From a virus, in the IMG/VR virus record IMGVR_UViG_3300046499_000591, positions 15,198-79,197 of that record: a DNA stretch of 64,000 nucleotides. One strand, given 5' to 3'. The position numbers were made by a program, and so were the translations under genes. Position 1 is the first letter of the stretch. Each line of letters starts with the position of its first letter. Positions 1 to 45,500 of the stretch are shown here, piece after piece. The notes beneath the pieces are model-generated. The model worked only from the letters and a program-made list of their open reading frames with translations. It searched no databases and was not told where the DNA came from.

Positions 1-1
1 C

Positions 2-3488: not shown

Positions 3489-3514
3489 CCCGGCCCCGAG
3501 GGAGGTGACCGCCC

Positions 3515-4896: not shown

Positions 4897-4941
4897 CCGG
4901 CCGCATCTTCCCCCGCCCCCTTCTCTGCCTGCGGAGTCCGC

Positions 4942-5277: not shown

Positions 5278-5280
5278 CCG

Positions 5281-6531: not shown

Positions 6532-6587
6532 GCCCCGCCGGCGCCACCCCACCCCCTTCACGTCTTCGCCCTCGAATCGGAGCCCTC

Positions 6588-7174: not shown

Positions 7175-7178
7175 CCGC

Positions 7179-7640: not shown

Positions 7641-7685
7641 CGTAACACGCGCCCGGAGGCGCCCAACCCTGGAAAGGGGGGCGCC

Positions 7686-11384: not shown

Positions 11385-11433
11385 CAACCCGTACGAATGA
11401 GGGCGCCACCGGGCGCCAGATTGGTGGTGCCCG

Positions 11434-14862: not shown

Positions 14863-14871
14863 GAGGACCCC

Positions 14872-15420
14872 GTGGCACGCACGGTGCCCGTCATCGCATC
14901 CGAGAGCCCGGGAAACTTCCTGACCGGCGCCTTGTGGAACGCCAACGTCAAGGCGATGGGCGACTGGCTCATGGGCTCGGCCGGTAACGGCATGCCCAGG
15001 TTCCGCGGCTATCAAGCCACGGCCCAGGCCGTCGCCAATAACACCTGGGTCAGCGTCACCCTCGACACCGAGCAATACGACTCCGACAACGGCCACTCGA
15101 CCACGACGAACTCCAGCCGGTACACCGTGCAGGTCCCCGGCACGTACCTGATCGTCGGCAGTATCGGCATGGTCGCGAGCGCCACCGCCAACCGTGCTGT
15201 CCGGATCACCGTCAACGGATCACCGATTCCCGGTTCGTTCGTCAAGACGGGCGCGCCGGACGCCAGCGGCTCGTCTGGGCTCGTCTCGGTGACCACTGCT
15301 GTCTGCGCGGTCGGTGACTTCATCGAGGTCCAGGTCAACCAGAACTCCGGCGGGACCCTCAACACGGCGGCCGCCGGCGATGTGGCGTGCTCGATGGCCG
15401 CGACCTGGTTTACCGGCTGA
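14872..15420 (+). CDS. Minor tail / receptor-binding tip protein (C1q-like beta-sandwich)
   Basis: GGAGG RBS; SRYTVQVPGTYLI and GDFIEVQVNQNSGG motifs; last tail gene before a terminator. Confidence 0.65.
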   Translation: MARTVPVIASESPGNFLTGALWNANVKAMGDWLMGSAGNGMPRFRGYQATAQAVANNTWVSVTLDTEQYDSDNGHSTTTNSSRYTVQVPGTYLIVGSIGMVASATANRAVRITVNGSPIPGSFVKTGAPDASGSSGLVSVTTAVCAVGDFIEVQVNQNSGGTLNTAAAGDVACSMAATWFTG

Positions 15421-15449
15421 CCCTTCCGCCCCCCATCAGCCACCCACTC

Positions 15450-15477
15450 AAGCCCCCCGGCCCGCCGGGGGGCTTTT
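15450..15477 (+). terminator. Intrinsic terminator between tail and lysis modules
   Basis: AGCCCCCCGG-CCCG-CCGGGGGGCT-TTT. Confidence 0.75.
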
Positions 15478-15499
15478 GCATGCCCGGAGGCCCGCACTC

Positions 15500-16318
15500 G
15501 TGCTCACCCATGGCACCCTCGTTCACCGCTACCAGCCGACCGACGTACGCCTCGGCCGGCACCGCCGCCTCGACGCCCGGTCCCTGAACCACCTTCACCA
15601 CCACGACGGCAGCCAGCTCCTGCCCGTCCGGCACGAGATCCCGATCCCGATCCTCGACCAGGAAGACCTGGACGTTCAGGGCATCAACACCCACCTCCTC
15701 GTGCCCGGCGCGAAGCGGGTGAAGGCCCTCGGATCGTGCACCGCGAACGCCGGCACCGCCGGCCTCGCCTTCCTCCTCGGCGCCGGCCGCCTCGCCGACG
15801 TCGGCCTCTCCGCCACCGACCCGGTGGTGTGCGAGGAGTACGCGATCCGGCTGTACCACGAGGAGACCGTCGCCGACGAGTTCCCCGGCGAGTGGCCCCC
15901 GGACGACGTCGGCTCCTCCGGCCTCGGTATCGCCCGCGCGCTCAAGGCCCGCGGCCTCATCGGCGGGTACGTCCACGCGACCACCGCCGACGCCATCGCG
16001 TCTCTTCTGCAGAATGGCCCCGTCCTCCTCGGCGTGCCCTGGTTCCAGGCGTGGTTCACCCCCGACGCCGACGGGTTCGTCGACTCCGGCGACTGGATCG
16101 CAAGCCCCCTCGCCGGCGGACACGAGATCCTCGCCATCGGCCTCGACGCCGTCGCGCAGCGCCCCGACGGCCGCGTCATACCCGAGCAGACCGTCGTCCG
16201 GCTCCGGAACTCGTGGAACACCACCTGGGGCCTCGACGGCGAGTTCCGCCTCCGGCTGTCGACGTACGTCAAGCTGCGCCAGCACATCGACGCCATCCAG
16301 CTGAAGGCGAAGGCGTGA
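15500..16318 (+). CDS. Papain-like (peptidase C1-type) cysteine protease
   Basis: GGAGG RBS then GTG at 15500; ILDQ (oxyanion Gln), GSCTAN (Cys), GGHEI (His) and RNSW...WG..G (Asn) in C1 order. Confidence 0.8.
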   Translation: MLTHGTLVHRYQPTDVRLGRHRRLDARSLNHLHHHDGSQLLPVRHEIPIPILDQEDLDVQGINTHLLVPGAKRVKALGSCTANAGTAGLAFLLGAGRLADVGLSATDPVVCEEYAIRLYHEETVADEFPGEWPPDDVGSSGLGIARALKARGLIGGYVHATTADAIASLLQNGPVLLGVPWFQAWFTPDADGFVDSGDWIASPLAGGHEILAIGLDAVAQRPDGRVIPEQTVVRLRNSWNTTWGLDGEFRLRLSTYVKLRQHIDAIQLKAKA

Positions 16319-16746
16319 CCCGCCCGGTCACCGCACACGACCAGGCGCAGACCCACCAGTACGTCATGCACTACCCGGACCACGCCCCCCGCGAGGGTGA
16401 CCCGCACTATCGGGCGTTCGAGGCGTACGGCCGGCACCACCGCGCCGGTGCCGTCTGCTACGTCGCCGAGCGGGCCGGCCACGCCCAGTGTGCCGGCGCC
16501 CTCGAACTCCACCACTCGGTGCTCGAGTTCGCCACGGCCAACGCGGCCGACCCCAAGGCCCTGCACCGCGACTTCCCCGAGATCCGCGAGGACGCCACCG
16601 CCGACGAGGTCGCCGAGTGGGTCGAGTCCAGCCCGGGCGCCTTCCGGTGGCTGTGCGCCTTCCACCACCGCGGCCACGGCGGCGCCCACACGGCATCCCA
16701 CGCCGACTGGACGGCCCAGCTCTACGTCCCCGGCCTCATCTCTTAA
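16315..16746 (+). CDS. His/Cys-rich HNH-like (His-Me finger) protein
   Basis: GTGA overlap; C-x-V...C...LELHH...WLC-x-FHHRG..GAH pattern. Confidence 0.5.
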   Translation: MTRPVTAHDQAQTHQYVMHYPDHAPREGDPHYRAFEAYGRHHRAGAVCYVAERAGHAQCAGALELHHSVLEFATANAADPKALHRDFPEIREDATADEVAEWVESSPGAFRWLCAFHHRGHGGAHTASHADWTAQLYVPGLIS

Positions 16747-16747
16747 C

Positions 16748-16787
16748 CGGCGGCCGGCCGGCCCCTCGAGCGGCCGGCCGGCCGCCG
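16748..16787 (+). other. 16-bp intergenic hairpin with CCTCGAGC loop
   Basis: CGGCGGCCGGCCGGCC / GGCCGGCCGGCCGCCG perfect stem. Confidence 0.65.
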
Positions 16788-16850
16788 TCACCCCCCACCG
16801 TTTCGCCCCGCGGCCGCCGGCCCGGGGCCCGCATATCCGAGGCGGCATTC

Positions 16851-17279
16851 GTGTCCAACGCGTCCTCGGGCGCCAGCGCCCTAGAGACCATCTCCTTCGC
16901 CGGGGGAGCCCTCGGCACCCTCCTGACGATCGTCGCCCTCGCGCGCCGTATCCGGCCCATGCTGCGCCGGCGCGTGCACCGCTGGGACCGTCTCGACCAG
17001 CTCATGGGCGACCCGGACACCAGTCCGCCGCGCCCGGGCGTCCTCGAGCACGTCGCCGCGCTCCGCGACGAGGTCGCCGACATGCGCGGAAGCCAGGAGA
17101 CCGTGCGCCGGCTCGCCGCCGAACTCGTCCCGAACTCGGGCTCGTCATGGCGCGACGCGTACGACCGCGACCAGGCCCACCAACACCTGGTCAACACCGC
17201 CATTGCCGCGCGGCTCGGTATCGAGCTGCCGCCGCTGCCGCCCCGCTCCGTCCACCGTCACCACGACGACGAGGCGTAG
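16851..17279 (+). CDS. Membrane protein of the lysis cassette (holin-associated candidate)
   Basis: One N-terminal hydrophobic segment, short coiled coil, and EL-x-PNSGSSWRDA motif common in actinophage pre-lysin membrane proteins. Confidence 0.55.
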   Translation: MSNASSGASALETISFAGGALGTLLTIVALARRIRPMLRRRVHRWDRLDQLMGDPDTSPPRPGVLEHVAALRDEVADMRGSQETVRRLAAELVPNSGSSWRDAYDRDQAHQHLVNTAIAARLGIELPPLPPRSVHRHHDDEA

Positions 17280-17350
17280 AGCCCGGCCGGCCGCACACAC
17301 ACCACCGCCCCGCCGGCATCGCCGCGGCGGCCCCATGACCCCGGAGGTCA

Positions 17351-18793
17351 GTGATGCTCAACGGCATCGACGTCAGCGGCTACCAGTCGAACACCCCCGA
17401 CGTGTCCGGCAGCGCCTTCGTCTTCGTCAAGGCGACCGAGGGCACGTCGTACATCAACCCCAAGCAGTCCGACCAGGCCGCGACCGCCCGCGCGGCCGGC
17501 GCCGTCGTCGGCTTCTACCACTTCGCGCGGCCGGGCAACATCCAGGCGCAGGCCCAGTATTTCGTCGACAACGCGGCCTCCGCCGAGGGTGACATCCTCG
17601 CCATCGACTGGGAGGACTCCGGCGTCTCGTGCGCCGACAAGGACGCCCTCCTCAAGGCCGTCAAGGCGCTGCGCCCGACGCACAAGGTCGTCCTCTACTG
17701 CAACACCTCGTTCTGGAAGAACATCGACACCACGTCGTACGTCGAAGACGGCCTCTGGATCGCGGACTACAGCCACCCCGCGGGCTCCCCGAACATCCTC
17801 CACTCGTGGGTGTTCCACCAGTACAGCCAGACCGGCGTCGACCAGGACGTCGCGAACTTCGCGAACGCGGCGGCCCTCACGGCGTGGGCGACCAGCGACG
17901 TACCCAGCGGCACGCCGAAGTGGCGGACGCTCCTCGACCACGTCGAGAGCATTCCGGAGAAGATCTACGAGACGTGGACGTCCGCCGACGGGTGGGACAA
18001 CCACACCGAGTTCGGCGTCGAGTACGGCGAGGACGGCGTCTCGTGGTGCGTCATCTTCGACTGGGACATGTACCACGACGTCGGCCTCGACGCGATCGTC
18101 CCGAAGACCGACAACGTCGACTCCTTCACGTCGTGGGCGAAGGCTCACGGGCAGTGGTCGCTGTACCCGTCGGTCGGCGCCTGGGTCAACTTCTCCAACG
18201 GCGCCCACACGGAGATCGTCGTGGGCTTCGACGCTACGACCGTCTACACCAAGGGCGGTAACTCCATCCAGTCCGGCGCCGTCGACAACGGGCAGGGCAA
18301 TGGTGTGTGGTCCCACTCGCACGCCCGCACCGACGCGGCCGTCGTCGGCTACCTCGCCCCGCGCTTCCCCGACGGCGTATGCCCGCCCACCGCGGACCCG
18401 GCCGACCCGCGCGGCGGTACGGCCGTCACGTCCTACACGTGGCCCGGGGCGGTGTCCTCGCCGTCGAAGCCGACGCCGAGCAAGCCGGCACCGACCGCGA
18501 CGCCGACCGTCGACCTGTCCAAGCTCATCGCCGCGGCGAAGAAGGACCCGACGGCGAAGCAGGGCCACCAGACGTACGCGGTCGGCGTCAAGATCGTCGA
18601 GGCCGCGCTGCGCGCCGAAGGCCTCCTCGACAAGAAGTACGCCGGCGACGGCTCGTTCGGGTCGCTCACCGTCACGGCGTACCGGAAGTGGCAGCAGCGG
18701 CTGCACTTCTCCGGGCAGGCCGCGGACGGCATCCCGGGCATCGAGTCGCTGAAGGCGCTCGGCAAGAAGCACGGGTTCAAGGTCATCGCCTGA
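17351..18793 (+). CDS. Endolysin: GH25 muramidase + CHAP-like domain + C-terminal peptidoglycan-binding domain
   Basis: GIDVSGYQ, FVFVKATEG and LAIDWE (GH25); SWCVIF...GAHTEIV...GGN (CHAP Cys/His); DGSFG..T..AY..WQ...ADGIPG binding repeat. Confidence 0.88.
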   Translation: MMLNGIDVSGYQSNTPDVSGSAFVFVKATEGTSYINPKQSDQAATARAAGAVVGFYHFARPGNIQAQAQYFVDNAASAEGDILAIDWEDSGVSCADKDALLKAVKALRPTHKVVLYCNTSFWKNIDTTSYVEDGLWIADYSHPAGSPNILHSWVFHQYSQTGVDQDVANFANAAALTAWATSDVPSGTPKWRTLLDHVESIPEKIYETWTSADGWDNHTEFGVEYGEDGVSWCVIFDWDMYHDVGLDAIVPKTDNVDSFTSWAKAHGQWSLYPSVGAWVNFSNGAHTEIVVGFDATTVYTKGGNSIQSGAVDNGQGNGVWSHSHARTDAAVVGYLAPRFPDGVCPPTADPADPRGGTAVTSYTWPGAVSSPSKPTPSKPAPTATPTVDLSKLIAAAKKDPTAKQGHQTYAVGVKIVEAALRAEGLLDKKYAGDGSFGSLTVTAYRKWQQRLHFSGQAADGIPGIESLKALGKKHGFKVIA

Positions 18794-18802
18794 CGGCCGG
18801 TG

Positions 18803-25600: not shown

Positions 25601-25786
25601 TTACCAGGTGCGCGGCCCCCCGTAGTACGCCCATTCGGCCTTCCGGTCGGCCTCGACCTGGATCAGAATGTCGCGCATGAAGTCACCGGTGCCGTACTTG
25701 CAGCCGGGCTTGTGCGGGAACGGGAACTGGTTCGACGTCACGCCGCAGCCGCCGCCGTCGCACGTGTCGTAGCCGTACCGGATCAC
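25601..25786 (-). CDS. Small Cys-containing hypothetical protein
   Basis: GTG overlaps the recombinase stop; VIRYGYDTCDGGGCG...HKPGC. Confidence 0.45.
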   Translation of the reverse strand: MIRYGYDTCDGGGCGVTSNQFPFPHKPGCKYGTGDFMRDILIQVEADRKAEWAYYGGPRTW

Positions 25787-26859
25787 AGGCCGATGCCTCT
25801 CATGGGGTTCTCTTCGCGGTCGTCCACGGGCCGGATGTACGCGAGGACTTGCGGCGAGTTCTCCGCCCACCGGCCCTGGGTGCGGATCGCGGAGACGGGC
25901 GCCTTCTGTCGGTACGCCTCGCTCGCGCCGCCGGCCCGGAAGCCGTGGGCGGTGTAGGTCAGTCCGTCGTCGGGGAACACGACGGCGGCCCGGCGCTGCA
26001 CCATCTCGTTGATGGCGTCGCCGGACATGGAGTCGTGGGTGATCTGGTCCCACTGGTTGATGGCGCGCAGGAGTCGGCCGGTGGTGATGCCGCGGTCGGC
26101 GAGCGCGGCCCGGTACGCGCGGACGACGCGGACGGGGTCGGTGTCGTTGTGGACGCCGCGCGGCACGATGACCTCGACGCCGTCGCCCTCCTGGTCGGTC
26201 TTGGAGGCGCGGATCAGGATGGTGAGGTCGCCCTCGTCGTCCTCGCTGATGTCTTCCAGGTGTAGGCCGGCCAGTTCGGAGCGGCGGGCCATCATCGCGA
26301 ACCCGAGGACGAGGATGACCCGGTCGCGGAGGCCGGCGAGGGTGGTGAGGTCGCACGTGTCGATGAGGGCGCGCAGCTTGGCGAGGTTGATGGGCGGCGC
26401 CTTGCGCTTGCGGGTGCCGGCCTTCGCGCGCCCCTTCTTGTAGGCGGCGAGCAGGCGCAGCGCGCCGGCGGTGTCCGGCTGGTCGCGGTAGCCGGCCGAC
26501 TTGTGGCGGGAGCGGATGACGCCGAGGGCCTGCTCGATGCTGGACGGGGCCGGCGTGCGGCCGGTGCGCTCCGACGGGGTCACGGTCATGTGCCGGACGT
26601 ACTCGGTGAGGGTGGCCGGCGTCGCCGGCAGCGGCACCCGCCCCTGGACGGTGCACCAGCCGGCGAACGTCTGCCACTGTCGGGTGTAGGCGCGTTGGGT
26701 GTTCTCGGGGACGGAGTCGACGAGGGCCTGGCGGGTCTCGTCGCTCACCTCGTGGTCGCGGTCGGTGTGGACGAGGGGCGTCTCGGGGCGTGCCGCCGGC
26801 AGGAGGTGGTCGTCGTCGACGAGCTCGGCGTCGACCACTTCGGATTCGTCGTCTGTCAC
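25783..26859 (-). CDS. Cre-like tyrosine recombinase (putative dimer resolvase)
   Basis: Complete catalytic set as in Cre: R (MMARRSEL), K (SKTDQ), HxxR (HGFR), W (QGRW), Y (LAYIR); N-terminal NTQRAY...W..F..WC core-binding domain. Confidence 0.9.
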   Translation of the reverse strand: MTDDESEVVDAELVDDDHLLPAARPETPLVHTDRDHEVSDETRQALVDSVPENTQRAYTRQWQTFAGWCTVQGRVPLPATPATLTEYVRHMTVTPSERTGRTPAPSSIEQALGVIRSRHKSAGYRDQPDTAGALRLLAAYKKGRAKAGTRKRKAPPINLAKLRALIDTCDLTTLAGLRDRVILVLGFAMMARRSELAGLHLEDISEDDEGDLTILIRASKTDQEGDGVEVIVPRGVHNDTDPVRVVRAYRAALADRGITTGRLLRAINQWDQITHDSMSGDAINEMVQRRAAVVFPDDGLTYTAHGFRAGGASEAYRQKAPVSAIRTQGRWAENSPQVLAYIRPVDDREENPMRGIGL

Positions 26860-26871
26860 GCCCTCAATCTT

Positions 26872-26899
26872 ACCCGTGATAAGCCAAGTTATCCGGGGT
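26872..26899. other. Putative 11-6-11 recombination core site (lox/dif-like)
   Basis: ACCCGTGATAA-GCCAAG-TTATCCGGGGT; arms 9/11 inverted, with the inner TAA/TTA typical of tyrosine recombinase sites; 12 bp upstream of the recombinase start. Confidence 0.7.
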
Positions 26900-28437: not shown

Positions 28438-28779
28438 ATGAATCACCACATGATCAGGATTGCGGCCGGCGCCGTCCTCGCCGGCGCGCTCATTACCGGC
28501 TGTTCCAGCAGCGGCCCGACCGCCGACCAGAAGAGATACGCCGACGCCGCGGCGGCCGCCGACCCCGACGACTTCGGCGGGATGAAGACCGACGACCTCG
28601 CCGGCACCCTCGGGGACGAAGGCAAGGAGCTGTGCGACCAGTTGAAGAAGGGCTCGTACGCCGACGCCCTGGCGTACGCCAAGACCGGCTTCCCGGGGAA
28701 GCAAGCGGCCGCGCTCGTCGACGCCGCGGTGCTCGTCAACTGCCCGGACCAGAAGGGGAAGGTGCCGGCCGGATCGTAG
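28438..28779 (+). CDS. Lipoprotein
   Basis: Signal peptide with lipobox (LITG-C-SS); two further Cys that could form a disulfide. Confidence 0.75.
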   Translation: MNHHMIRIAAGAVLAGALITGCSSSGPTADQKRYADAAAAADPDDFGGMKTDDLAGTLGDEGKELCDQLKKGSYADALAYAKTGFPGKQAAALVDAAVLVNCPDQKGKVPAGS

Positions 28780-28797: not shown

Positions 28798-28828
28798 GAG
28801 CGCCCCCGGGGTACCTCCGGGGGCGCTC
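28798..28828. terminator. Hairpin between the lipoprotein gene and mini-array 1
   Basis: GAGCGCCCCCGG-GGTACCT-CCGGGGGCGCTC. Confidence 0.7.
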
Positions 28829-28830: not shown

Positions 28831-28921
28831 GGCCACAGCCCCGCGTGCGCGGGGAGCAGCGGTAGCCCGGTGGTCGACCTACAGTCTCCGCATGGGCCAT
28901 ACCCGACACGTCGGGTGGTGC
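28831..28921 (-). CRISPR. Type I-E-like single-spacer mini-array 1 (degenerate repeat - 33-nt spacer - canonical repeat)
   Basis: Minus strand: GCACC-ACCCGA-CGTG-TCGGGT-ATGGCCCA, spacer TGCGGAGACTGTAGGTCGACCACCGGGCTACCG, then CTGCT-CCCCGC-GCAC-GCGGGG-CTGTGGCC; both repeats have the 5+16+8 I-E geometry. Confidence 0.75.
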
Positions 28922-28996
28922 TCGACCGAGGAGAGGTGTATCTATCTAGGCGAAAGCACACCTGAAGTTGTTGCTTCGATGGTGCCTCGGTCGAGC
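28920..28996. ncRNA. Candidate structured RNA abutting mini-array 1
   Basis: 12-bp closing stem GCTCGACCGAGG/CCTCGGTCGAGC enclosing AGGTGT..GC-GAAA-GC-ACACCT and GAAG..CTTC helices. Confidence 0.45.
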
Positions 28997-29042
28997 GGTT
29001 CAACTATGGCACAGGCCGCTGACACCGTGCAGCCGAACCGGG

Positions 29043-29651
29043 TCACTCGATCGGGCGATGGGCGCGCCGGCACATCGTCCCGCGGCATCCCTGCCGGTAC
29101 CCGCACGGCCGGCCGCACCGGTCGCCGCCGACGCACAGCGCGACGGCGGCCTCGTCGAGGGCGGCCCTAAAGTCGTCGTCGCGGCGGGCGAGCCCGAACA
29201 CCTGGCCCGGGGTCACCTCGGCCCGGACGGCGGCCGCCTCGATGGTGGCGACGTCGCCGGCCGAGACCAGTTCGAGCACCTGCCGGCGCCGCTGCTCGGG
29301 GAACACGGCGTCGGCGGCCGTACGCCGGCGCGTACGGGAGTCGGCGTTGTGCCAGGCCAGGCAGTCATCGCACCCGCAGCCGAGGCGCCACAGCGTCGAC
29401 GGGGCGTAGCGGCTGTGGTCGAGGGCCGGCGGGTCGGTGTCGGCGGCGGCGATGAGGGCCGCGCCGGTCCATACCCGCCCTCGGCCGTCGGCGCCGGGCA
29501 CCCGTTCCCACTCGGCGCCGGGGAACCAGCCGCTGAGGACCAGGGTGTTCGTCGACGACACGGCCAGGCCGAGGAGTTCGGCGAGGTCGGCGGCGCGGTA
29601 CCGGGCGTCGGGGTCGATGCGGTCGACGACGCGGGCGAGGGGGTGGTCCAT
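29043..29651 (-). CDS. HTH + Cys/His zinc-binding protein between the mini-arrays
   Basis: GGGAGA RBS, ATG at 29651; YRAADLAELLGLAVSS HTH; LGCGCDDC..WH; second HTH-like segment; GYRQGCRGTMCRRAH. Confidence 0.75.
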   Translation of the reverse strand: MDHPLARVVDRIDPDARYRAADLAELLGLAVSSTNTLVLSGWFPGAEWERVPGADGRGRVWTGAALIAAADTDPPALDHSRYAPSTLWRLGCGCDDCLAWHNADSRTRRRTAADAVFPEQRRRQVLELVSAGDVATIEAAAVRAEVTPGQVFGLARRDDDFRAALDEAAVALCVGGDRCGRPCGYRQGCRGTMCRRAHRPIE

Positions 29652-29682
29652 GCTTCTCTCCCTGGGTATGGGGGTGTCTGCT

Positions 29683-29768
29683 GCGGTCACCTCCGCATGC
29701 GCGGAGCAGAATCCGGCTCCTCGGCGAGCAGCAGCCAAGGGCGATACCCCCGCGTTTGCGGGGAAGAG
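29683..29768 (-). CRISPR. Type I-E-like single-spacer mini-array 2
   Basis: Minus strand: CTCTT-CCCCGC-AAAC-GCGGGG-GTATCGCC, 28-nt spacer CTTGGCTGCTGCTCGCCGAGGAGCCGGA, then TTCTG-CTCCGC-GCAT-GCGGAG-GTGACCGC. Confidence 0.72.
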
Positions 29769-29816
29769 TTCGACGTCATGATGGCACACTCCGCCGGCAG
29801 CGGGCGGGGAACCGGG

Positions 29817-30032
29817 TCAGTCCTCGTTGTACAGCGACGGGAACGAGCGCCGGGCGACGCCGCCCGTGTAGGCGAGCATGTGGGCCGTCTCCGCCGGCGT
29901 CAACGGCCGTGGATCGCGGAGCCCTTCGGCGAGGCCGTCGGCGAAGCAGCGGCCCAGGTATTCCAGCGCGGCCCGGTCCCGCTCGGCGATGGTGGGCCCC
30001 ATGCCCAGGAGGCGGCGAAGGAGTCGATGCAT
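29817..30032 (-). CDS. Small hypothetical protein, first gene of the mini-array operon
   Basis: MHRLLRRLLGMGPTIAERD..., divergent from the XRE gene. Confidence 0.55.
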   Translation of the reverse strand: MHRLLRRLLGMGPTIAERDRAALEYLGRCFADGLAEGLRDPRPLTPAETAHMLAYTGGVARRSFPSLYNED

Positions 30033-30171
30033 GCCGGCAGCATCGCACGCCGCACCGACATCAGACCGTATGCGAAAGCCCCTCACGTCACAGGTACGTA
30101 AGGGGCGTTCGCAGTCTCCGCCCGGCCGGCCGGGGGTACCGTTCCTAGTGGACGCTAGGAATGGAGCCAGT

Positions 30172-31401
30172 ATGCCCCACTACGCCGACACCGGGGGGAG
30201 CGCAGAGAGCAACGGGCAGCGCCTTGCCCGCCTCCGTGCGCGCCACCGGTGGACTCAGCAACGCCTGGCAGATGAAGCCGGGTACTCTCTCGCAGCCGTG
30301 AAAGCCTACGAACAAGGGCGCCGCAGCCTGGACCGCCCCGCCGTGGTCCTCGCGTTCGCTCACGCCCTGGACTGCCATCCCACCGAGATCACCGGCGGCC
30401 CGTACTCGCCGGTGTCCACCGACACCGAGGGGCAGGTCGCCGTCGCGGCCGTCGCCGCGGTACGCCGCGCCCTGCTGCGGCACGGCCGCCCCACCAGGCC
30501 GGAGGAGCACGAGGTTGCCGCTGTCGACCTGCCGGAGCTACGGCGACGCGTCGCCGAGGGCAACGCCTTCCGCCAGGCCGCGGCTTTAGCGAAGTCCGGT
30601 CCCATCCTGCCCGCACTGCTCCGCGACCTCCAGGTGGCCGCCGAGGTGTGCGAGGGCGACCAACGCCGGGAAGCCTTCGGGCTGCTCTCGTCGGCGTACG
30701 AGTGCGCCATGCAGTACCTCTACAAGCTGGGCCACACCTCGGATGCCACCCTGGCGACCGAGCGGGTGCTGTGGTCCGCGCAGGAGTCCGGCGACCCGCT
30801 CCGCATCCTGGCCTCGCACTGGTACGACGCCGGGGAGTTCCTGTCGATCGGCGAGCACGACGAGGCCGGCGCCATCATCGACGACGCCCTGACCGAGCTG
30901 GGGACGGTCCGCGACCGTACGCCGGAGGTGGTGTCCCTGTGCGGCGCGTTCCTCCTCAAGGCATCGCTGAACTCGGCCCGCTCGGCGGACAACCGGGGCG
31001 CCGAGCAACACCTGGCGAAGGCGAAGACCGCGGCGGAGGAGCTGGGCGGCGACCGCAACGACTACCAGCTGCAATTCGGGCCGACCAACGTGGCCATCTG
31101 GGGTGTGTCCTTGCCGGTGGAGATGGGCAAGGGCCGCGTCGCCGTGGACCGGGCCGAGGGGGTGCGCCTGCCGGCGCAGTTCTCCCCGGAGCGGCACTCG
31201 CACCACTTCATCGACGTGGGCCGCGCGCACTTCTACAACGGGCAGCGCGAGGCGGCTATCGGCGCGTTCCTCAAGGCGGAGCGGCTGGCACCGCAGGCGA
31301 CCCGCATGCATGCCGGTGTGCGGGAGACCGTCGGCACGATGATCCGTACTCAGAAGCGCGGTGAGCTGGTGGAGTTGGGTATCCGGCTCGGCGTCGTGTG
31401 A
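30172..31401 (+). CDS. XRE-family HTH regulator with helical/TPR-like C-terminus
   Basis: GQRLARLRARHRWTQQRLADEAGYSLAAVKAYEQGRR HTH; FGPTNVAIW and ER.APQ motifs typical of Streptomyces XRE proteins; contains a TTA codon at 30586. Confidence 0.88.
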   Translation: MPHYADTGGSAESNGQRLARLRARHRWTQQRLADEAGYSLAAVKAYEQGRRSLDRPAVVLAFAHALDCHPTEITGGPYSPVSTDTEGQVAVAAVAAVRRALLRHGRPTRPEEHEVAAVDLPELRRRVAEGNAFRQAAALAKSGPILPALLRDLQVAAEVCEGDQRREAFGLLSSAYECAMQYLYKLGHTSDATLATERVLWSAQESGDPLRILASHWYDAGEFLSIGEHDEAGAIIDDALTELGTVRDRTPEVVSLCGAFLLKASLNSARSADNRGAEQHLAKAKTAAEELGGDRNDYQLQFGPTNVAIWGVSLPVEMGKGRVAVDRAEGVRLPAQFSPERHSHHFIDVGRAHFYNGQREAAIGAFLKAERLAPQATRMHAGVRETVGTMIRTQKRGELVELGIRLGVV

Positions 31402-31409
31402 GCGTGCAG

Positions 31410-31432
31410 AAGGGCTACGTTTTGTAGCCCTT
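31410..31432. promoter_or_regulatory. Inverted repeat between the XRE gene and its downstream operon
   Basis: AAGGGCTAC-GTTTT-GTAGCCCTT. Confidence 0.55.
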
Positions 31433-31500
31433 GGGTCACCCCCTGGTCCCTACTGTCGGTTGAGTACCCGTCACCGACTTCCCGGGCCAGGGGGTTTCCT

Positions 31501-31902
31501 ATGAGCACCGCGCCACCACCGCTGGCGTTCCTCTACGACCGCTGCTTAACAGAGAACGCCGCGATGCTGGAGCTGCGCTGCACGGCCCTCGCCGAATACG
31601 TCGAGGAGCGGGGCTGGGTAGAGGCCGGCAGCTTCGTCGACTACGGCGACGCGGCACTGACCAACGACAACCGGCCGGCGTTCGACGAGCTGCTGCGCAC
31701 CATGGCGCGCGCCACCGACGTGGACCGGGTGTGCCTGGTGTACGACTGGGGCCGCCTGAGCCACGACGCCGGCCACCGGCAGGTGTTCACCCGCCGGGTC
31801 CTGGGCGCCGGCGGCTGGCTGGCGTCCCTCAACGGGGAGACGGTGCGAATCGGAGCGGTCCCGGACGGGCGGCTGACGAGCGCACCGCAGGCAATCGCAT
31901 GA
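31501..31902 (+). CDS. Stand-alone serine resolvase-like catalytic domain lacking the catalytic Ser
   Basis: FLYDRCL (vs YxRxS), RPAFDELL and VYDWGRLS motifs; no DNA-binding domain; TTA codon at 31546. Confidence 0.7.
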   Translation: MSTAPPPLAFLYDRCLTENAAMLELRCTALAEYVEERGWVEAGSFVDYGDAALTNDNRPAFDELLRTMARATDVDRVCLVYDWGRLSHDAGHRQVFTRRVLGAGGWLASLNGETVRIGAVPDGRLTSAPQAIA

Positions 31903-34924: not shown

Positions 34925-35377
34925 GTGGCCCGCCCCAAGAAGCGTCCCGCCCAGGCCGAACTGCTCACCCAGGCCGCCGAGAAACTCGCGAACGTCGGTA
35001 TGCCCGAGCACGCCGACGCCATCCGCGAGGCCCTGACCGAACTCACCCGCCCCAAGGCGCGGGAGGGCAACCCGACCCTCACCGTGTGGACCACGCCGGA
35101 GATCTGGCGGGCCGCGCAGGAGGCCGGGTCGGTCCCCGACCTCATCGAGGAAGGGTTCGCCGCCCTCCTCGCCGGCCGCTTCAAGCCGGCGAAGGCACGA
35201 CGTACCACCGGCGGGCCGGCCAAGGGCAGTTTCAGCGCCCGGGCCACCGTCGACCGGCAGCGCGAGGTCACCGACTACGTCGCCGCGCACGCCGACACCC
35301 TCGGCTGGTCCCCATCGGCACGCCAGGTCGCGGCCGCATGGCTTGAGCACAAGTTCAGCCCCCGACCGCGCACGTAG
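34925..35377 (+). CDS. Putative DNA-binding regulator (tandem RHH-like)
   Basis: GGAGA RBS; basic N-terminus; two strand-helix-helix-like units; first gene after the operators. Confidence 0.6.
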   Translation: MARPKKRPAQAELLTQAAEKLANVGMPEHADAIREALTELTRPKAREGNPTLTVWTTPEIWRAAQEAGSVPDLIEEGFAALLAGRFKPAKARRTTGGPAKGSFSARATVDRQREVTDYVAAHADTLGWSPSARQVAAAWLEHKFSPRPRT

Positions 35378-35454
35378 CGCGGGCAGCGGGGCGCCGGCCT
35401 GGACGCCGACACCGGGCACGCCCCGCACACGAGTCCCCAAGGGAGACACCCCAG

Positions 35455-36639
35455 ATGGCATCCGCACCCAAGGCCGCCGGCACCGCCAGCGACCCCACCG
35501 CCCACACCCTCACCCTCACGCCGGGGCAGCTGGCCGGCCTCGAAAAGCTCCGCGAGCCGTTCCCCGAGACCGCCATCGCGAAGCGCCCCCAGATCTCGTG
35601 TGGCGCCTGCAAGGACGCGAGCACGAAGGTGTGCAACACCCACAGCAAGGCGACGTGCGCGGCCTGCGGCCAGTACGTGACCACGGCCCACAAGCACCTC
35701 GACTACGTCGGGCACGCCGAGGCCACCGACCGGCTCCTCTCGGTCGACCCCACGTGGGACTGGGAGCCGATCGCCCGGGACGACAAGGGCCGCCCGCTCA
35801 TCGACTCCGACGGCGGCATGTGGATCACGCTGACCGTCTGCGGCATGACCCGCAAGGGATACGGCGACGCCGTCGGCAAGCGCGCCGGCACCACGGCCAC
35901 GAAGGAGATCATCGGCGACGCCATCCGCAACGCGGGCATGCGCTTCGGCATGGCCCTGGACCTGTGGGCGAAGACCAAGCTGCACATCGAGCCCCCGCAC
36001 CCGGCCGAGCCGTTCCTCGAAGCCATCAAGACCGAACGCGTCTGGATGTCGTCGGAGTGGCTGGCCGGGGTCCGCCAGGAGGCCGACGAGGCCGGGCAGT
36101 TGGACTACGTCCTTCCCCGCGGCGGCGGCAAGACCCTCGGCGACATCATCGACGGGCAGCTCGCGGTCCTCGCGGACGCGGCCGAGCGGTACGCCGCCAT
36201 GCGCATCAAGGCCGACGAGGAGCGCCAGGCCCGCAAGGAGGAGCGCGCCGCGGTCACCGCGCACGTCGCGGCCTCGCACCCCGACCCGGCGCAGCAGCCC
36301 GCGCCGCCGGCCGGACAGCAGCCGCCGCCGGCGGGTCCGCCGCCGGCCGACATCGGGCCGAAGACCGCGCAGCAGATCCGCGACGCGTGCGGCCCGGTGT
36401 GGCTCGACCCGGACGGTTTGCAGCGCGTGCTCGACCGGGCTACCGAGATCCGGGTCATCAACGAGCCGGCCGACCCGTCGAAGCCGCGCGGCTCGACGCT
36501 CGGCCAGGCCCTCCAGATCCAGATCACCGAACTCCGCCGGCGCGCCGCGCAGAGGACCAGCACGACCCAGGCGTCGGACGCCGCCCACCAGTACGCCGAA
36601 CACGATGATTGGGGACACACGGGTGACGCTGCGGGATGA
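35455..36639 (+). CDS. Rad52/Sak-like single-strand annealing protein with Cys-rich insertion
   Basis: L..PFP...I, LDYVGHA..TDRLLSVDPTW.W and KE.IGDAIRNAGMRFG.ALDLW motifs. Confidence 0.8.
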   Translation: MASAPKAAGTASDPTAHTLTLTPGQLAGLEKLREPFPETAIAKRPQISCGACKDASTKVCNTHSKATCAACGQYVTTAHKHLDYVGHAEATDRLLSVDPTWDWEPIARDDKGRPLIDSDGGMWITLTVCGMTRKGYGDAVGKRAGTTATKEIIGDAIRNAGMRFGMALDLWAKTKLHIEPPHPAEPFLEAIKTERVWMSSEWLAGVRQEADEAGQLDYVLPRGGGKTLGDIIDGQLAVLADAAERYAAMRIKADEERQARKEERAAVTAHVAASHPDPAQQPAPPAGQQPPPAGPPPADIGPKTAQQIRDACGPVWLDPDGLQRVLDRATEIRVINEPADPSKPRGSTLGQALQIQITELRRRAAQRTSTTQASDAAHQYAEHDDWGHTGDAAG

Positions 36640-43018: not shown

Positions 43019-43933
43019 CTAGTCCACCGTCACACCCGCCTCGGTGAGTGCCGCGTTGAGGACCCGCACTAGGTCCCGTACCCGCGCCGGATCCTTGCGG
43101 ACCGCCTCGCGCACGGTCTCCGGCACGAGCAGCTTCGCGGCCCGCTCCACGACGGCGCCCGGGTCGGCGGCCGCCGCGAGCGCCGGCGTCTCCTCGGGGT
43201 CGACCCTCGTGGTGATGCCCAGGAGTGCCTTCGCCTTCTCCAGCTCGTCGGGGGTCGGCGTCGCCCCCTTCTTCGTCTCGCACGCCGTCTTCCAGATCTT
43301 GACGACCCGGTCGGCCCCGTGCTGCAACCGCACCGAGTGCAGCGCGTCGACCTGCCGGGAGGACAAGTCCTCGAGGACGTAGCCGGCGCCCCGAAGGACC
43401 GCGAGGAGCGGGAGCGTCTGCGTGATCCGGTAGCCGGTGCGTTCCGAGAGGTCGTGTTGCTCGCGGAGGTACTTCGCGAAGGACCGGTAGGTCTTCCCGT
43501 CGTTCCCCTTGATCAGCTTGTAGAGCTTGTGCTCGTGGACCCAGCACAGGTACGGGCCGGCCGCGGCGATGAACTCCTCGTTGGCCGCGTCCACCTTCGC
43601 CTTCCACTGGGCCTTCGCCCCGTGGATGCCGCGCTCGCACACGGCGAGCTGTTCGGCCGGCTCGGCGTCCGGGCTGGGCAACGCCGGCGGCACGAACGCC
43701 GTCGGCGCCACGAACGTCGGCATGACCACGGCCGGGGCCGCGGCGGGTTCCGCGGGACGGGTGGCCGGGACGGCCGCCGGCTGCGCCCCGCCGACGGGTG
43801 CGTCTCCCTGCTCCCCGCCCTTTGTCTCCTCCCACTCCGCCATCACCTGCGCGCGCGTCCGGACCACCGGCGCCGGAGCGCCCGGCGGCTCCAACCCCGT
43901 CGACGGCAGCTCCTTGGGCTTGTACTTACTCAC
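43019..43933 (-). CDS. ParA partner (non-canonical ParB-like DNA-binding protein)
   Basis: ATGA overlap with parA; disordered basic N-terminus; LY...YRSFAKYLREQHDLSERTGYR HTH-like motif; no GxxR ParB-CTPase box seen. Confidence 0.65.
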   Translation of the reverse strand: MSKYKPKELPSTGLEPPGAPAPVVRTRAQVMAEWEETKGGEQGDAPVGGAQPAAVPATRPAEPAAAPAVVMPTFVAPTAFVPPALPSPDAEPAEQLAVCERGIHGAKAQWKAKVDAANEEFIAAAGPYLCWVHEHKLYKLIKGNDGKTYRSFAKYLREQHDLSERTGYRITQTLPLLAVLRGAGYVLEDLSSRQVDALHSVRLQHGADRVVKIWKTACETKKGATPTPDELEKAKALLGITTRVDPEETPALAAAADPGAVVERAAKLLVPETVREAVRKDPARVRDLVRVLNAALTEAGVTVD

Positions 43934-45075
43934 GCCGCCAACTCCTTCGCCACGGCGCGCATCGTCTCCGCCTGCGGGCTGTCCGGCGCGTACTCAAGGA
44001 GCGGGATCTCGTAGTCGGACGACTCGCGGCCCTCCACGGAGTCCTTGAGGTGGGCCAGCACACCGGGCGTCGTGAGTTCGTTCCACGCGTCGTAGAACGA
44101 CCGGGTCACCGTGCCCTTACGGGAGTCGTACGCGTTGACGATGATGCCGAGCTGGTCGACGACGATGCCGGTCCGCTCGCACTGGGTGACGATCTGGTTG
44201 TTGAGGAGCTTGTACGCGCGGAACGACGACTTGTCGGCCCACACGGGGACGAGGACACCGGAGCGCTCCATCAGCTCACCCGGCCGGCGCTGCACGTAGT
44301 CGATGGCGAGGTCGAGGCCGAGCCCGAGGTTCGGCGGGCCGTCGAGGAGGACGACGTCGTAGTTGGCCTCGACGGGGGCGAGGGCGCGGGCGAGGCAGGT
44401 GTCCCGGCCGGCGCGCATGGAGGCGAGTTCGGCGTCCATGAGGAACGCGTCCTCGGAGGCCGGCAGTATGTGCAGCCGTCCACCGAACCGCTCGCCGTCG
44501 AGGGCGATGATGGACCGGGCGAGGTGCGTCGCGGCCTTGCCGAGCATGTGCTGGAGGAGGCTGTCGCCGCCGAGCGGAAGTTCGGCGACCTGGAGCCGGG
44601 CGGAGAGGTGGCCCTGCGGGTCGTAGTCGACGAGGAGGACGCGGAGCCCCATCTCGGCGAGGGCCTGGCCGACGCCGGCAGTGATGAACGTCTTTCCTAC
44701 GCCGCCCTTTTGATTGGCAATCAGGACGCGCTGCACCGGTTGCGACACGAGCCGGTGTTCCGGGGACGGGTGGGCCTTGAGCCACACCGTGACCGCTTGC
44801 GCCATGCCCTGGACCTTGGTGAGTCCGCGGGCGTCGCACTCGGCTTCGAAGCGTGCCGGGCCGCCGGGAGGGAGGAAGACGCCCCACGACTTGGCGCCCT
44901 CGACCGGGACCGCGTCGGCGGCCGGCGCGGCGTACCAGAGGTTGAGGGCGTGGGCGGCGGCGTCCTGGACGTTCACCCCGTGCTCGGCCGCACGGATCTT
45001 GAGGTCCCGCCGCATCGACGGCATGAGGTTGACAAGCAACTTCTCGCGCGCGTTGTCAGGTGTTTCGGTCGTCAT
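43930..45075 (-). CDS. parA: ParA Walker-type partition ATPase with N-terminal tandem RHH-like extension
   Basis: IANQKGGVGKT deviant Walker A; VLLVDYDPQG, YDVVLLDGPP and IPLLEYAP.S..AE motifs. Confidence 0.92.
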   Translation of the reverse strand: MTTETPDNAREKLLVNLMPSMRRDLKIRAAEHGVNVQDAAAHALNLWYAAPAADAVPVEGAKSWGVFLPPGGPARFEAECDARGLTKVQGMAQAVTVWLKAHPSPEHRLVSQPVQRVLIANQKGGVGKTFITAGVGQALAEMGLRVLLVDYDPQGHLSARLQVAELPLGGDSLLQHMLGKAATHLARSIIALDGERFGGRLHILPASEDAFLMDAELASMRAGRDTCLARALAPVEANYDVVLLDGPPNLGLGLDLAIDYVQRRPGELMERSGVLVPVWADKSSFRAYKLLNNQIVTQCERTGIVVDQLGIIVNAYDSRKGTVTRSFYDAWNELTTPGVLAHLKDSVEGRESSDYEIPLLEYAPDSPQAETMRAVAKELAA

Positions 45076-45500
45076 GGCGAGCAAATTACCAGTCTCGGTT
45101 CCGGATGCCGGTGGGACGCCACACAACGACACCGGAGGGTGACCCGGGCGGCCGAACGCGCGTACACATCGGGTGGCGTGGTGGGGTGGCGCGTTGCCGT
45201 GACGTCGCTCTACAATCACCCGCATGCCGGGGCTTTCCCCGGCGACCTTGAAGGACTCGGCCGTCCTCTTCGCTTGTGATTCATGTCGGCAAACCTGGGC
45301 ATGAGCGGAGGGGGCGGCTCCTTTATGCGTGATCACCTGCGGGTAAGGTGATCAGCCGTGCGTTACGAAGGGGACTAGACATCACGGAAACAGTGGCGGC
45401 CGGCAAGTCGGTCTGTCACCCTGCCGATAGGGATACCGGTAGTTTCGCGTTGTCTGCCCGCGGAGAAACGCCATTCCAGCTAAGCGTGAAGAGAGACCCG

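What the first reader, a model, noticed from the sequence alone, without database searches (positions are those of the whole stretch)
29683..29768. Mini-array 2 with an atypically short 28-nt spacer in the leader of the HTH/Zn gene
Seen: two different I-E repeat variants (CCCCGC and CTCCGC stems) only 28 nt apart, ending 31 nt before the ATG. Known: I-E spacers are usually 32-33 nt, and length-altered crRNA mimics can form aberrant Cas complexes. Inference: a Racr-type decoy, or Cas6 cleavage of the mRNA leader that ties expression of the gene to the presence of a host CRISPR system.
Basis: partly seen in the sequence, partly recalled or inferred. Interest (0 to 1): 0.78.

Follow-up and report, generated by a model that had tools for sequence, protein, structure and literature searches.

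The report
Phage CRISPR-repeat mimic as gene leader
A temperate Streptomyces phage carries a small fixed imitation of a type I-E CRISPR array as the leader of a DNA-binding protein gene, probably to decoy or sense the host's CRISPR proteins, a known counter-defence in a layout not yet described.

Summary
On the minus strand, 29740-29768 and 29683-29711 are two different 29-nt type I-E-like repeats. They are separated by 28 nt and end 31 nt before the ATG (29651) of a 202-aa double-HTH, Cys-rich protein.

The unit is inherited, not acquired. In 13 of 16 related Streptomyces loci (phage, linear plasmid pFRL3, chromosomes) the same order recurs: promoter-like motif, repeat A, "spacer", repeat B, a conserved 31-nt leader, SD, gene.

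The spacer is homologous across loci. It varies by indels (23-33 nt) and folds into a hairpin whose arms co-vary. I found no protospacer and no match in two host cas loci. The 98-kb phage contig has no cas genes. All four carrier genomes I could search hold real I-E arrays, against 41 of 101 sampled Streptomyces species.

Best reading: a hard-wired crRNA mimic, transcribed with an Aca-like regulator, that engages host Cas6e/Cascade. This is Racr/Cracr-type counter-defence. Folding also predicts that the 5' flank of repeat A masks the SD, so Cas6e cleavage could switch the gene on. None of this has been tested in the laboratory.

The scan has already reported similar I-E repeat mimics on other phages, including a Streptomyces phage. 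I class this as a new variant of a known kind.

The parts
29778..29789 (-). Conserved promoter-like motif GTG-TGCCATCAT (candidate extended -10). It ends about 10 nt before repeat A.
   Evidence: TGCCAT(C/A)(A/G)T or a one-base variant lies at the same place in the 13 array-bearing loci. Homology with pFRL3 starts about 10 nt further upstream, at GGCGG (about 29799). The sigma-70 consensus scan found no canonical promoter, so the promoter role is inferred.
29740..29768 (-). Repeat A (psi-R1): type I-E-like repeat with stem CCCCGC/GCGGGG, loop AAAC, a handle-like GTATCGCC and an unusual pyrimidine 5' flank CTCTT.
   Evidence: The stem is invariant in 11 aligned leaders. The S. prunicolor copy shares TCCCCGCCGACGCGGGGGTG with that host's own CRISPR repeat.
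29712..29739 (-). Psi-spacer of 28 nt. It is homologous across loci and forms a hairpin (GCCCUUGGC / GCCGAGG.GC) that includes the end of the handle.
   Evidence: Alignments. Predicted hairpins of -10 to -18 kcal/mol in 11 of 13 loci. Arm variants are CUUGG/CCAAG, CCUGG/CCAGG, CUCGG/CCGAG and, with G.U, CUUGG/CCGAG. No protospacer found.
29683..29711 (-). Repeat B (psi-R2): I-E-like repeat with variant stem CUCCGC/GCGGAG, loop GCAT and handle-like GTGACCGC.
   Evidence: Stem position 2 is U-A in 6 leaders and C-G in 5, a compensatory change. One leader has a G.U at the loop-closing pair.
29652..29682 (-). Conserved 31-nt leader with ACACCCCCAU and the SD GGGAGAG (29656-29662).
   Evidence: This is the most conserved non-repeat segment in A4. 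In minimum-free-energy folds the SD pairs with the CUCUUCC flank of repeat A in 9 of 13 leaders. The SD is less accessible than in shuffled leaders in 11 of 11, and opens after a cut at repeat A or B.
29046..29651 (-). Gene for a 202-aa DNA-binding protein with an N-terminal MerR/excisionase-like wHTH, a second HTH and two Cys/His clusters. Candidate Aca-like regulator.
   Evidence: GC3 0.88. No Pfam family. A 28-member, Streptomyces-only family. AlphaFold2 pLDDT 86.7. Only HTH-type structural matches.
30175..31401 (+). Divergent XRE-family regulator of 408 aa, the conserved neighbour of the module.
   Evidence: HTH_31 at E 3.7e-12. The same arrangement is seen in L016, L017 and L023. It is 86% identical to the S. 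mexicanus copy.
28831..29011 (-). Downstream sister unit: a second TGCCATAGT motif (29003-29011), a 12-bp-stem structured RNA, repeat D (28893-28921), a 33-nt spacer (28860-28892) and repeat C (28831-28859).
   Evidence: The whole unit is conserved at 84% in L023, with a homologous spacer. It is absent from pFRL3.
28798..28828 (.). A 12-bp GC hairpin that closes the leftward unit and the convergent gene 28438-28779.
   Evidence: Read directly from the sequence. It is identical in L023. There is no T tract, so the terminator scan did not call it.

Best explanation
Mini-array 2 is a fixed, inherited imitation of a type I-E CRISPR unit (psi-repeat, psi-spacer, psi-repeat). A temperate Streptomyces phage, and related plasmids and prophages, transcribe it as the 5' leader of a gene for a DNA-binding protein.

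In a host with a type I-E system, Cas6e most likely binds and cuts at the base of the two hairpins. This releases a short crRNA-like RNA with a handle-like 5' end, a structured 28-nt body and a 3' hairpin. That RNA occupies Cas6e and Cascade subunits without guiding them to a target. It would therefore be a decoy or competitor of the Racr/Cracr type.

The same cut separates the mRNA from the upstream leader. The downstream protein would then act as the HTH regulator of the operon, in the manner of an Aca protein.

Shown here: repeat identity, conservation, gene linkage, absence of cas genes and of any target, and co-occurrence with host I-E arrays.

Inferred: transcription start, Cas6e cleavage, Cas sequestration and the role of the protein.
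For: 1. The repeats are true I-E derivatives. They have a 6-bp CCCCGC/GCGGGG-type stem, a 4-nt loop and an R-U-G...CC handle like real Streptomyces repeats. In S. prunicolor, repeat A shares 20 consecutive nt with the host repeat.

2. The module is conserved as one piece in 13 of 16 fetched loci of a 28-member gene family, on a phage, on linear plasmid pFRL3 and on chromosomes. Homology with pFRL3 starts about 10 nt upstream of the promoter-like motif.

3. Stems are kept by compensatory changes. Repeat B position 2 is U-A in 6 leaders and C-G in 5, and there are G.U pairs on the sense strand. This points to an RNA hairpin on the gene's strand.

4. The setting is a mobile element. The window holds a tape measure gene, a GH25 lysin, an integrase and a single-strand annealing protein. 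There are no cas genes on the 98-kb contig.

5. All four carrier genomes I could search hold I-E arrays, against 41 of 101 sampled Streptomyces species.

6. Short psi-spacers (21-24 nt) and linkage to HTH-containing Acr/Aca genes are described for type I-E and I-F viral crRNA mimics (bioRxiv 10.1101/2024.10.29.618823; PMC10651486).

7. The spacer drifts by indels between 23 and 33 nt while the repeats stay fixed. That is expected if its sequence does not guide anything.
Against: - There are no expression or processing data. No RNA run holds the locus.
- The sigma-70 scan found no canonical promoter.
- Repeat A and B differ from every host repeat seen: 19-23 of 29 identical by my own reading of the repeats listed. 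Whether Streptomyces Cas6e accepts them, especially the CUCCGC/GCGGAG stem, is unknown.
- The psi-spacer hairpin could hinder Cas7 loading.
- The co-occurrence statistic is small (4 of 4 against about 40%, p about 0.03), and two of the four carriers are part of the background sample.
- Strict linkage to one gene family suggests the hairpins may serve that gene and not counter-defence.
Confidence: 0.45

Rival explanations
1. The unit is a Cas6e-responsive translational switch. The full-length leader masks the ribosome-binding site: the CUCUUCC flank of repeat A, and possibly CCCUUGG at the start of the psi-spacer, pair with CCAGGGAGAG. Cas6e cleavage at repeat A or B removes the masking strand, so the DNA-binding protein is made only in cells with an active type I-E system. 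This is compatible with the decoy reading and may act together with it.
For: - Minimum-free-energy folds pair the 5' flank with the SD in 9 of 13 distinct leaders.
- SD accessibility is below the shuffled-leader mean in 11 of 11. It rises from 0.04 to 0.30-0.39 in the window after a cut at A or B.
- The flank-SD duplex beats shuffles at p <= 0.01 in 3 loci and at p 0.07-0.1 in 4.
- Repeat A keeps CUCUU in 8 of 13 loci, although real repeats and repeat B have GUGCU or GUGGU there.
- The 31-nt segment up to the SD is the best-conserved part of the leader.
Against: - The predicted transcription start is assumed.
- The pairing is not significant in 5 loci, and there are no clean compensatory changes in it.
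- Any pyrimidine tract pairs with an SD.
- RNAalifold proposes a different long-range partner.
- The sequences are related, so the 11 of 11 result is not 11 independent tests.
Confidence: 0.2
2. The unit is a Cracr-type guide. The processed RNA loads into host Cascade, and its PAM-proximal bases (the conserved CYUGG...) direct Cascade to a promoter, of cas genes or of another gene, and repress it without cleavage.
For: - The mini-array sits on a mobile element and has a short psi-spacer, as in the Salmonella prophage CracrIE array (24 and 21 nt; bioRxiv 10.1101/2024.10.29.618823).
- The 5' end of the psi-spacer is its most conserved part.
- L017 has a three-repeat, two-spacer version, like the multiplexed Cracr arrays.
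Against: - No seed or extended match in the two host I-E loci fetched, including the cas3 upstream regions. The only near-hits are at chance rate or lie inside a decayed array.
- No match on the phage contig, in IMG/VR or above chance in host genomes.
- No host CreR-like element was seen.
- The spacer is a self-paired hairpin whose arms co-vary, which is unexpected for a guide.
Confidence: 0.12
3. The element acts without Cas proteins. Repeat-derived hairpins were exapted as an ordinary structured 5' leader for mRNA stability or translation control. Alternatively, the palindromes act in DNA as operators for the XRE neighbour or for the encoded HTH protein.
For: - The element is strictly linked to one gene family and often to the divergent XRE gene.
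- The stems are invariant palindromes with free loops, which would also fit dimeric operators.
- High-GC DNA is rich in hairpins: there are 72 perfect 6-4-6 hairpins on the contig.
Against: - Handle-like 3' flanks and the 57-61 nt repeat period are kept, although neither role needs them.
- G.U pairs favour RNA over DNA symmetry.
- A second unit with the same motif and a 62-nt period lies downstream of the gene.
- Carrier genomes all have I-E arrays.
Confidence: 0.18
4. It is an ordinary phage-borne mini-CRISPR array whose spacer targets a competing mobile element through the host's interference machinery.
For: It has the repeat-spacer-repeat layout on a phage. Relatives have 31-33-nt spacers and a near-canonical period.
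Against: - The spacer is inherited and homologous across diverged loci, and it varies by indels.
- No protospacer in IMG/VR, in phage or plasmid collections, or on the contig.
- The repeats are not identical to each other (18 of 29).
Confidence: 0.03

Closest known systems
Racr, RNA anti-CRISPRs encoded as solitary repeat units (RacrIF1, RacrIC1, RacrIE1/IE2; Camara-Wilpert et al., Nature 2023, PMC10651486)
   Same: - A CRISPR-repeat mimic on a phage or plasmid, outside any CRISPR-Cas locus.
- It keeps the hairpin that Cas6 binds.
- It lies next to a small regulator or anti-defence gene.
- The host carries the cognate subtype.
   Different: - Two different repeats flank a conserved structured 'spacer', instead of one solitary repeat.
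- The unit is the 5' leader of a protein gene, not a free-standing small RNA gene.
- It is from Streptomyces.
- Inhibition has not been tested.
Cracr arrays and viral crRNA-like regulatory RNAs (Liu et al., bioRxiv 10.1101/2024.10.29.618823), and viral mini-arrays in Shmakov et al. 2023 (10.1101/2023.03.03.530964)
   Same: - Psi-repeat, psi-spacer, psi-repeat layout on a mobile element.
- A short psi-spacer: 28 nt here and 23 nt in relatives, against 24 and 21 nt in CracrIE.
- Degenerate repeats, including a one-base loop deletion in a relative (L017).
- Linkage to an HTH-bearing gene, as for acrIF24.
   Different: - The defining match of the psi-spacer to a host CreR/CreA spacer or a cas promoter was looked for and not found.
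- The psi-spacer folds on itself.
- The unit is fused to the downstream gene's leader.
CreTA / CreR host mini-arrays (CRISPR-repressed toxin or cas autoregulation)
   Same: A degenerate two-repeat unit with one fixed spacer lies directly beside the gene it may control.
   Different: - CreA and CreR lie inside cas loci and act by guiding Cascade to a promoter.
- Here there are no cas genes, no promoter match and no toxin-like gene.
acr-aca operons
   Same: A promoter drives a counter-defence product and then an HTH regulator in one transcript.
   Different: The first product would be an RNA. The HTH protein (202 aa, two HTH modules plus Cys clusters) matches no described Aca family in the libraries I searched.

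Membership tests
Type I-E CRISPR repeat | About 29-nt unit with a 6-7-bp G+C stem (CCCCGC/GCGGGG type) and a 4-nt loop | tested here: met
   Real Streptomyces repeats have the same architecture. Repeat B has a compensated U-A at stem position 2.
Type I-E CRISPR repeat | 8-nt 3' part that becomes the crRNA 5' handle (R-U-G-N-N-C-C-S in Streptomyces arrays) | tested here: inconclusive
   GTATCGCC and GTGACCGC resemble GTGAGCCG and ATGGACCC but are not identical. Relatives carry exact real handles: ATGGTCCC, GTGAACCG and GTGGCCCC.
Adaptive CRISPR array | Near-identical repeats, 61-nt period, spacers acquired from foreign DNA, cas genes in the genome | tested here: not met
   The repeats are 18 of 29 identical and the period is 57. 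The spacer is inherited across loci. No protospacer was found. No cas genes lie on the contig.
Racr (solitary repeat unit RNA anti-CRISPR) | Repeat mimic on a virus or plasmid outside CRISPR-Cas loci | tested here: met
   Phage context, pFRL3 and no cas genes.
Racr (solitary repeat unit RNA anti-CRISPR) | Solitary repeat without a flanking second repeat | tested here: not met
   There are two repeats here and three in L017.
Racr (solitary repeat unit RNA anti-CRISPR) | Promoter within 250 bp upstream | tested here: inconclusive
   A conserved TGCCATCAT motif lies about 10 nt upstream, but the sigma-70 scan found nothing.
Racr (solitary repeat unit RNA anti-CRISPR) | Binds Cas6/Cas7 and inhibits interference | not testable with these tools
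   This needs pull-down and plaque or conjugation assays.
Cracr / viral crlRNA | Psi-R, psi-S, psi-R unit on a mobile element with a shortened psi-spacer | tested here: met
   28 nt here and 23-33 nt in relatives.
Cracr / viral crlRNA | At least 9 PAM-proximal bp shared with a host CreR/CreA spacer or its promoter target | tested here: not met
   No such match in the S. prunicolor and S. zinciresistens I-E loci. Whole-genome hits are at chance level. Only two cas loci were examined.
acr-aca type operon | HTH regulator encoded downstream in the same transcription unit | tested here: inconclusive
   The protein folds as wHTH plus HTH and starts 31 nt after repeat B. Co-transcription and autorepression were not tested.

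The most novel reading that the evidence does not exclude
The leader is a natural Cas6e-operated switch. A crRNA mimic masks the ribosome-binding site of a phage regulator, and cleavage by the host's own CRISPR processing enzyme unmasks it. The phage would thereby sense whether the cell it has entered has an active type I-E system. It would respond by making a DNA-binding protein that sets counter-defence or the lysis-lysogeny choice, while the released RNA soaks up Cas proteins.
Probability: 0.2. Interest if true: 0.85.

Novelty: new variant of a known kind. Interest (0 to 1): 0.55.

Why it matters
RNA mimics of CRISPR repeats are a recently recognised phage counter-defence, studied so far mostly in Proteobacteria and Firmicutes. 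I found no paper describing one from Streptomyces.

Here the mimic is welded to the leader of a regulator gene, and that arrangement is kept across phages, plasmids and chromosomes. If Cas6e does cut it, this would be a natural example of a mobile element using the host's CRISPR enzyme as an input signal for its own gene expression. It would also be a ready-made Cas6e-responsive part for Streptomyces engineering.

If Cas6e does not cut it, the element shows how CRISPR repeats are recycled into ordinary RNA structure.

Tried and rejected
- **Rfam and tRNA scans** of the window found nothing.
- **Protospacer searches** for both window spacers:
  - on the 98-kb contig with up to 9 mismatches, and with a seed-only search: self-matches only;
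  - in IMG/VR with every sixth base free: none;
  - for the mini-array 1 spacer, in plasmid and phage collections: only hits with E >= 1.
- **Match of 14 psi-spacers** to the S. prunicolor and S. zinciresistens I-E loci. There were four 12-mer near-hits, which is about the chance rate. The one near cas3 lies in a decayed array spacer.
- **Whole-genome pattern searches** for the conserved spacer cores gave counts equal to the reversed-pattern control.
- **A loose pattern** for repeat end plus spacer start across 401 Streptomyces genomes was non-specific. The 30 sampled loci were coding sequence or true arrays, and no host CreR was found.
- **RNA evidence:** no RNA holder listed. Only DNA runs from rhizosphere and soil metagenomes hold the stretch.
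- **Relatives of a virus record** cannot be drawn. Genomes behind loci from the look-up of encoding contigs are not held, so only four carrier genomes could be checked for arrays.
- **Foldseek** against PDB and BFVD gave only weak HTH matches for the protein.
- **Column-wise covariation counting** of the psi-spacer hairpin on alignment A4 was abandoned, because MAFFT puts the 3' arms in different columns. The arms were read per sequence instead.
- **The psi-spacer hairpin** is only moderately more stable than 61 real high-GC spacers. It falls in the lowest 5% in 4 of 13 psi-spacers.
- **Complex prediction** was not used, because no protein-protein claim is made.

Full report
**What is in the sequence**

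The feature reads on the minus strand.
- Going 5' to 3', the first element is a motif GTG-TGCCATCAT at 29778-29789.
- Repeat A follows at 29740-29768: CTCTT, stem CCCCGC, loop AAAC, stem GCGGGG, then GTATCGCC.
- A 28-nt spacer occupies 29712-29739.
- Repeat B lies at 29683-29711: TTCTG, stem CTCCGC, loop GCAT, stem GCGGAG, then GTGACCGC.
- A 31-nt stretch with the SD GGGAGAG comes next.
- The ATG at 29651 opens a 202-codon gene that ends at 29046.

The stem motif occurs three times in the 64-kb window, all within 925 bp. Shuffles give 0.32 expected, and none of 100 reaches three.

**Are these CRISPR repeats?**

Yes, by descent. Real type I-E arrays in Streptomyces genomes are built the same way: 5 nt, CCCCGC, a 4-nt loop, GCGGGG and an 8-nt tail such as GTGAGCCG, ATGGACCC or ATGGTCCC, with a 61-nt period.
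- In S. prunicolor, the copy of repeat A shares the 20-nt core TCCCCGCCGACGCGGGGGTG with that host's own repeat.
- Relatives of the window carry exact real tails (ATGGTCCC, GTGAACCG, GTGGCCCC) on repeat A.
- The window's two repeats are diverged copies, 18 of 29 identical to each other. By my own count against the repeats listed, mini-array repeats in two carrier genomes share 19-23 of 29 positions with their host's repeat.

**Setting**

The contig is a virus record of 98 kb.
- The window carries a tape measure protein, a minor tail protein, a GH25 lysin, a tyrosine integrase, a GP88-family protein, a single-strand annealing protein and a ParA-like protein. It is therefore a temperate siphophage or prophage of a Streptomyces-like host.
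- The unit lies in the integrase/regulator region. It is divergent from a 408-aa XRE regulator.
- tblastn with five ORF products of a host I-E locus, including Cas3 and Cse1, finds nothing on the contig.

**The unit is inherited together with the gene**

The 202-aa protein belongs to a family of 28 proteins, all from Streptomyces or soil metagenomes. I fetched 16 loci: linear plasmid pFRL3, S. sp. P17, S. zinciresistens, S. prunicolor, S. mexicanus, a record named S. scabiei, S. chartreusis and S. misionensis by the sources, an IMG/VR contig and several metagenomic contigs.

Thirteen of them keep the same order: TGCCAT(C/A)(A/G)T motif or a one-base variant, repeat A, spacer, repeat B, conserved leader, SD, gene. 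Of the other three, one is decayed (L020), one is rearranged (L021) and one is a truncated paralogue (L006).

Homology between the window and pFRL3 starts about 10 nt upstream of the motif and is lost further upstream. The mobile piece is therefore the motif, the array and the gene.

L017 has three repeats and two 31-nt spacers. Its first repeat has a one-base loop deletion.

**The 'spacer' is not an acquired spacer**

It is homologous across loci: CYTGG, a variable middle, then GCGCGCC-AGGGAG. It differs by indels:
- 31-33 nt where both repeats are canonical (prunicolor, the IMG/VR contig, L017, L023);
- 25-28 nt in the window and five other loci;
- 23 nt in pFRL3, P17 and zinciresistens.

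The 28-nt length is thus one step in a shrinking series.

The segment, together with the last bases of the handle, folds into a hairpin of -10 to -18 kcal/mol in 11 of 13 loci. The arms co-vary: CUUGG/CCAAG, CCUGG/CCAGG, CUCGG/CCGAG and, with G.U, CUUGG/CCGAG in the window.

Compared with 61 real spacers from two host arrays, the psi-spacers are more structured than the mean in 12 of 13 cases. They fall in the lowest 5% in only four. The energetic signal is moderate, and the arm co-variation is the stronger argument.

Repeat B shows a clean compensatory change, with U-A in six leaders and C-G in five, plus one G.U pair. G.U pairs on the sense strand favour an RNA structure over a DNA palindrome.

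**No target**
- Neither window spacer matches the contig beyond itself.
- Neither matches IMG/VR with I-E-style flipped positions left free.
- The mini-array 1 spacer finds nothing significant in the phage or plasmid collections.
- Fourteen psi-spacers were compared with the I-E loci of S. prunicolor and S. zinciresistens, including the regions upstream of cas3. Only chance-rate 12-mer near-hits appeared.
- Genome-wide pattern counts equal the reversed-pattern controls.

The defining feature of Cracr RNAs is a PAM-proximal match to a host regulatory spacer or cas promoter (bioRxiv 10.1101/2024.10.29.618823). That feature was therefore tested and not met, within the limits of two cas loci.

**Link to host I-E systems**

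Four genomes that carry the module could be searched whole, and all four have I-E arrays. In a sample of 101 Streptomyces species, 41 do. This is suggestive (p about 0.03) but rests on few, partly overlapping genomes.

**A possible switch**

I started the RNA 6 nt after the motif, which is an assumption.
- Minimum-free-energy folds pair the pyrimidine flank of repeat A (CUCUUCC) with the SD (GGGAGAG or GGAAGAGG) in 9 of 13 distinct leaders, enclosing the whole array.
- The SD is less accessible than in dinucleotide-shuffled leaders in all 11 aligned sequences. It opens when the RNA is cut after repeat A or B; in the window the value rises from 0.04 to 0.30 and 0.39.
- The flank-SD duplex beats shuffled flanks at p <= 0.01 in three loci, is borderline in four and is not significant in five.
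- RNAalifold instead pairs the start of the spacer with CCAGG just before the SD. The 3' half of the spacer (CCAGGGAG) itself resembles the SD region.

These are predictions on related sequences.

**The protein**

The AlphaFold2 model is confident, with pLDDT 86.7.
- It shows an N-terminal MerR/excisionase-like winged helix and a second HTH with two Cys/His clusters.
- Structural searches return only HTH regulators, stand-alone roughly 125-aa actinobacterial HTH proteins that match the C-terminal half, and a Streptomyces phage Eklok protein.
- A DNA-binding regulator is the safe call. 'Aca-like' is an analogy from position only.

**The sister unit**

Downstream of the gene lies a second TGCCATAGT motif, then a 12-bp-stem RNA fold, a degenerate repeat (ACCCGA/TCGGGT stem, tail ATGGCCCA), a 33-nt spacer, a near-canonical repeat (CTGCT-CCCCGC-GCAC-GCGGGG) and a strong hairpin. 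The whole unit is conserved at 84% in L023, spacer included, and is absent from pFRL3. It shows that the same promoter-like motif drives a free-standing repeat-mimic RNA. This supports a role for these RNAs beyond control of the gene.

**Comparison with what is known**

RNA anti-CRISPRs made of solitary repeats (Racr; PMC10651486) and viral crRNA-like mini-arrays (Cracr; bioRxiv 10.1101/2024.10.29.618823; viral mini-arrays in 10.1101/2023.03.03.530964) are the closest kinds. This locus shares several features with them: the mobile-element setting, repeat mimicry, a short psi-spacer and linkage to an HTH gene.

It differs in four ways:
- it has two unlike repeats around a structured, target-less spacer;
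- it is fused to a gene leader;
- that fusion has been kept over a whole gene family;
- it is paired with a second unit.

Earlier notes of this scan describe I-E repeat mimics on other phages, one of them a Streptomyces phage. The principle is therefore not new, although this layout is.

**Verdict**

Most likely this is a hard-wired type I-E crRNA mimic that works through host Cas6e/Cascade as a decoy (confidence 0.45), possibly doubling as a Cas6e-operated switch for the downstream regulator (0.2). Cas-independent use of the hairpins remains a serious rival (0.18). I class it as a new variant of a known kind, with interest 0.55.

Noticed in passing
L016:5500-6897 (S. mexicanus chromosome LR732544.1): Two genes downstream of the homologous module lies a lone 465-aa Cse1/Cas8e-like gene. 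Pfam CRISPR_Cse1 matches at E 2e-31, over the N-terminal half only, and the protein is 29% identical to a real Streptomyces Cse1. No other cas genes lie within the 8.6-kb locus fetched, and a tRNA synthetase gene follows. It could be a decoy subunit or a relic.
   Followed up: partly
L017:3818-4000: This relative has a three-repeat, two-spacer (31 + 31 nt) version of the leader array. The first repeat has a 3-nt loop. A local hairpin (GCCUUCCGGAGGC) covers the SD in place of the long-range pairing.
   Followed up: partly
window 28831-29011 and L023:4604-4900: The downstream 'mini-array 1', with its own TGCCATAGT motif, a 12-bp-stem RNA fold and a closing hairpin, is conserved at 84% in one relative, spacer included. 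In repeat D both end pairs of the stem changed in a compensated way (ACCCGA/TCGGGT).
   Followed up: partly
window 29712-29739 versus 29652-29670: The 3' half of the psi-spacer (GCCGAGGAG here, CCAGGGAG in relatives) resembles the gene's own SD region (CCCAGGGAGAG). The start of the spacer can pair with either, which is the layout of an anti-SD / anti-anti-SD pair.
   Followed up: partly
window 30175-31401 (+): A 408-aa XRE regulator with a TPR-like tail is the divergent neighbour of the module in the window and in L016, L017 and L023. It is 86% identical to the S. mexicanus copy, so regulator and module often travel together.
   Followed up: partly
window 1-18800, 25786-26898, 35347-36639 and 43933-45351: Phage hallmarks: a tape measure protein (7641-11384), a minor tail protein (5278-6531), a GH25 lysin (17339-18793), an integrase, a single-strand annealing protein and a ParA-like protein. 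The ParA-like gene hints at a plasmid-like prophage lifestyle.
   Followed up: no
window 29817-30086 (-): A small open frame (71-89 aa) lies between the XRE gene and the array. It has no Pfam or PHROG match and is absent from relatives, whose intergenic region is only about 270 bp. It is probably not a gene.
   Followed up: partly
window 31402-31902 (+): A short protein with only the N-terminal resolvase domain (E 1.4e-6) lies directly after the XRE gene. In L017, a HATPase_c_2 protein and then a DUF6415 protein occupy the equivalent place.
   Followed up: no
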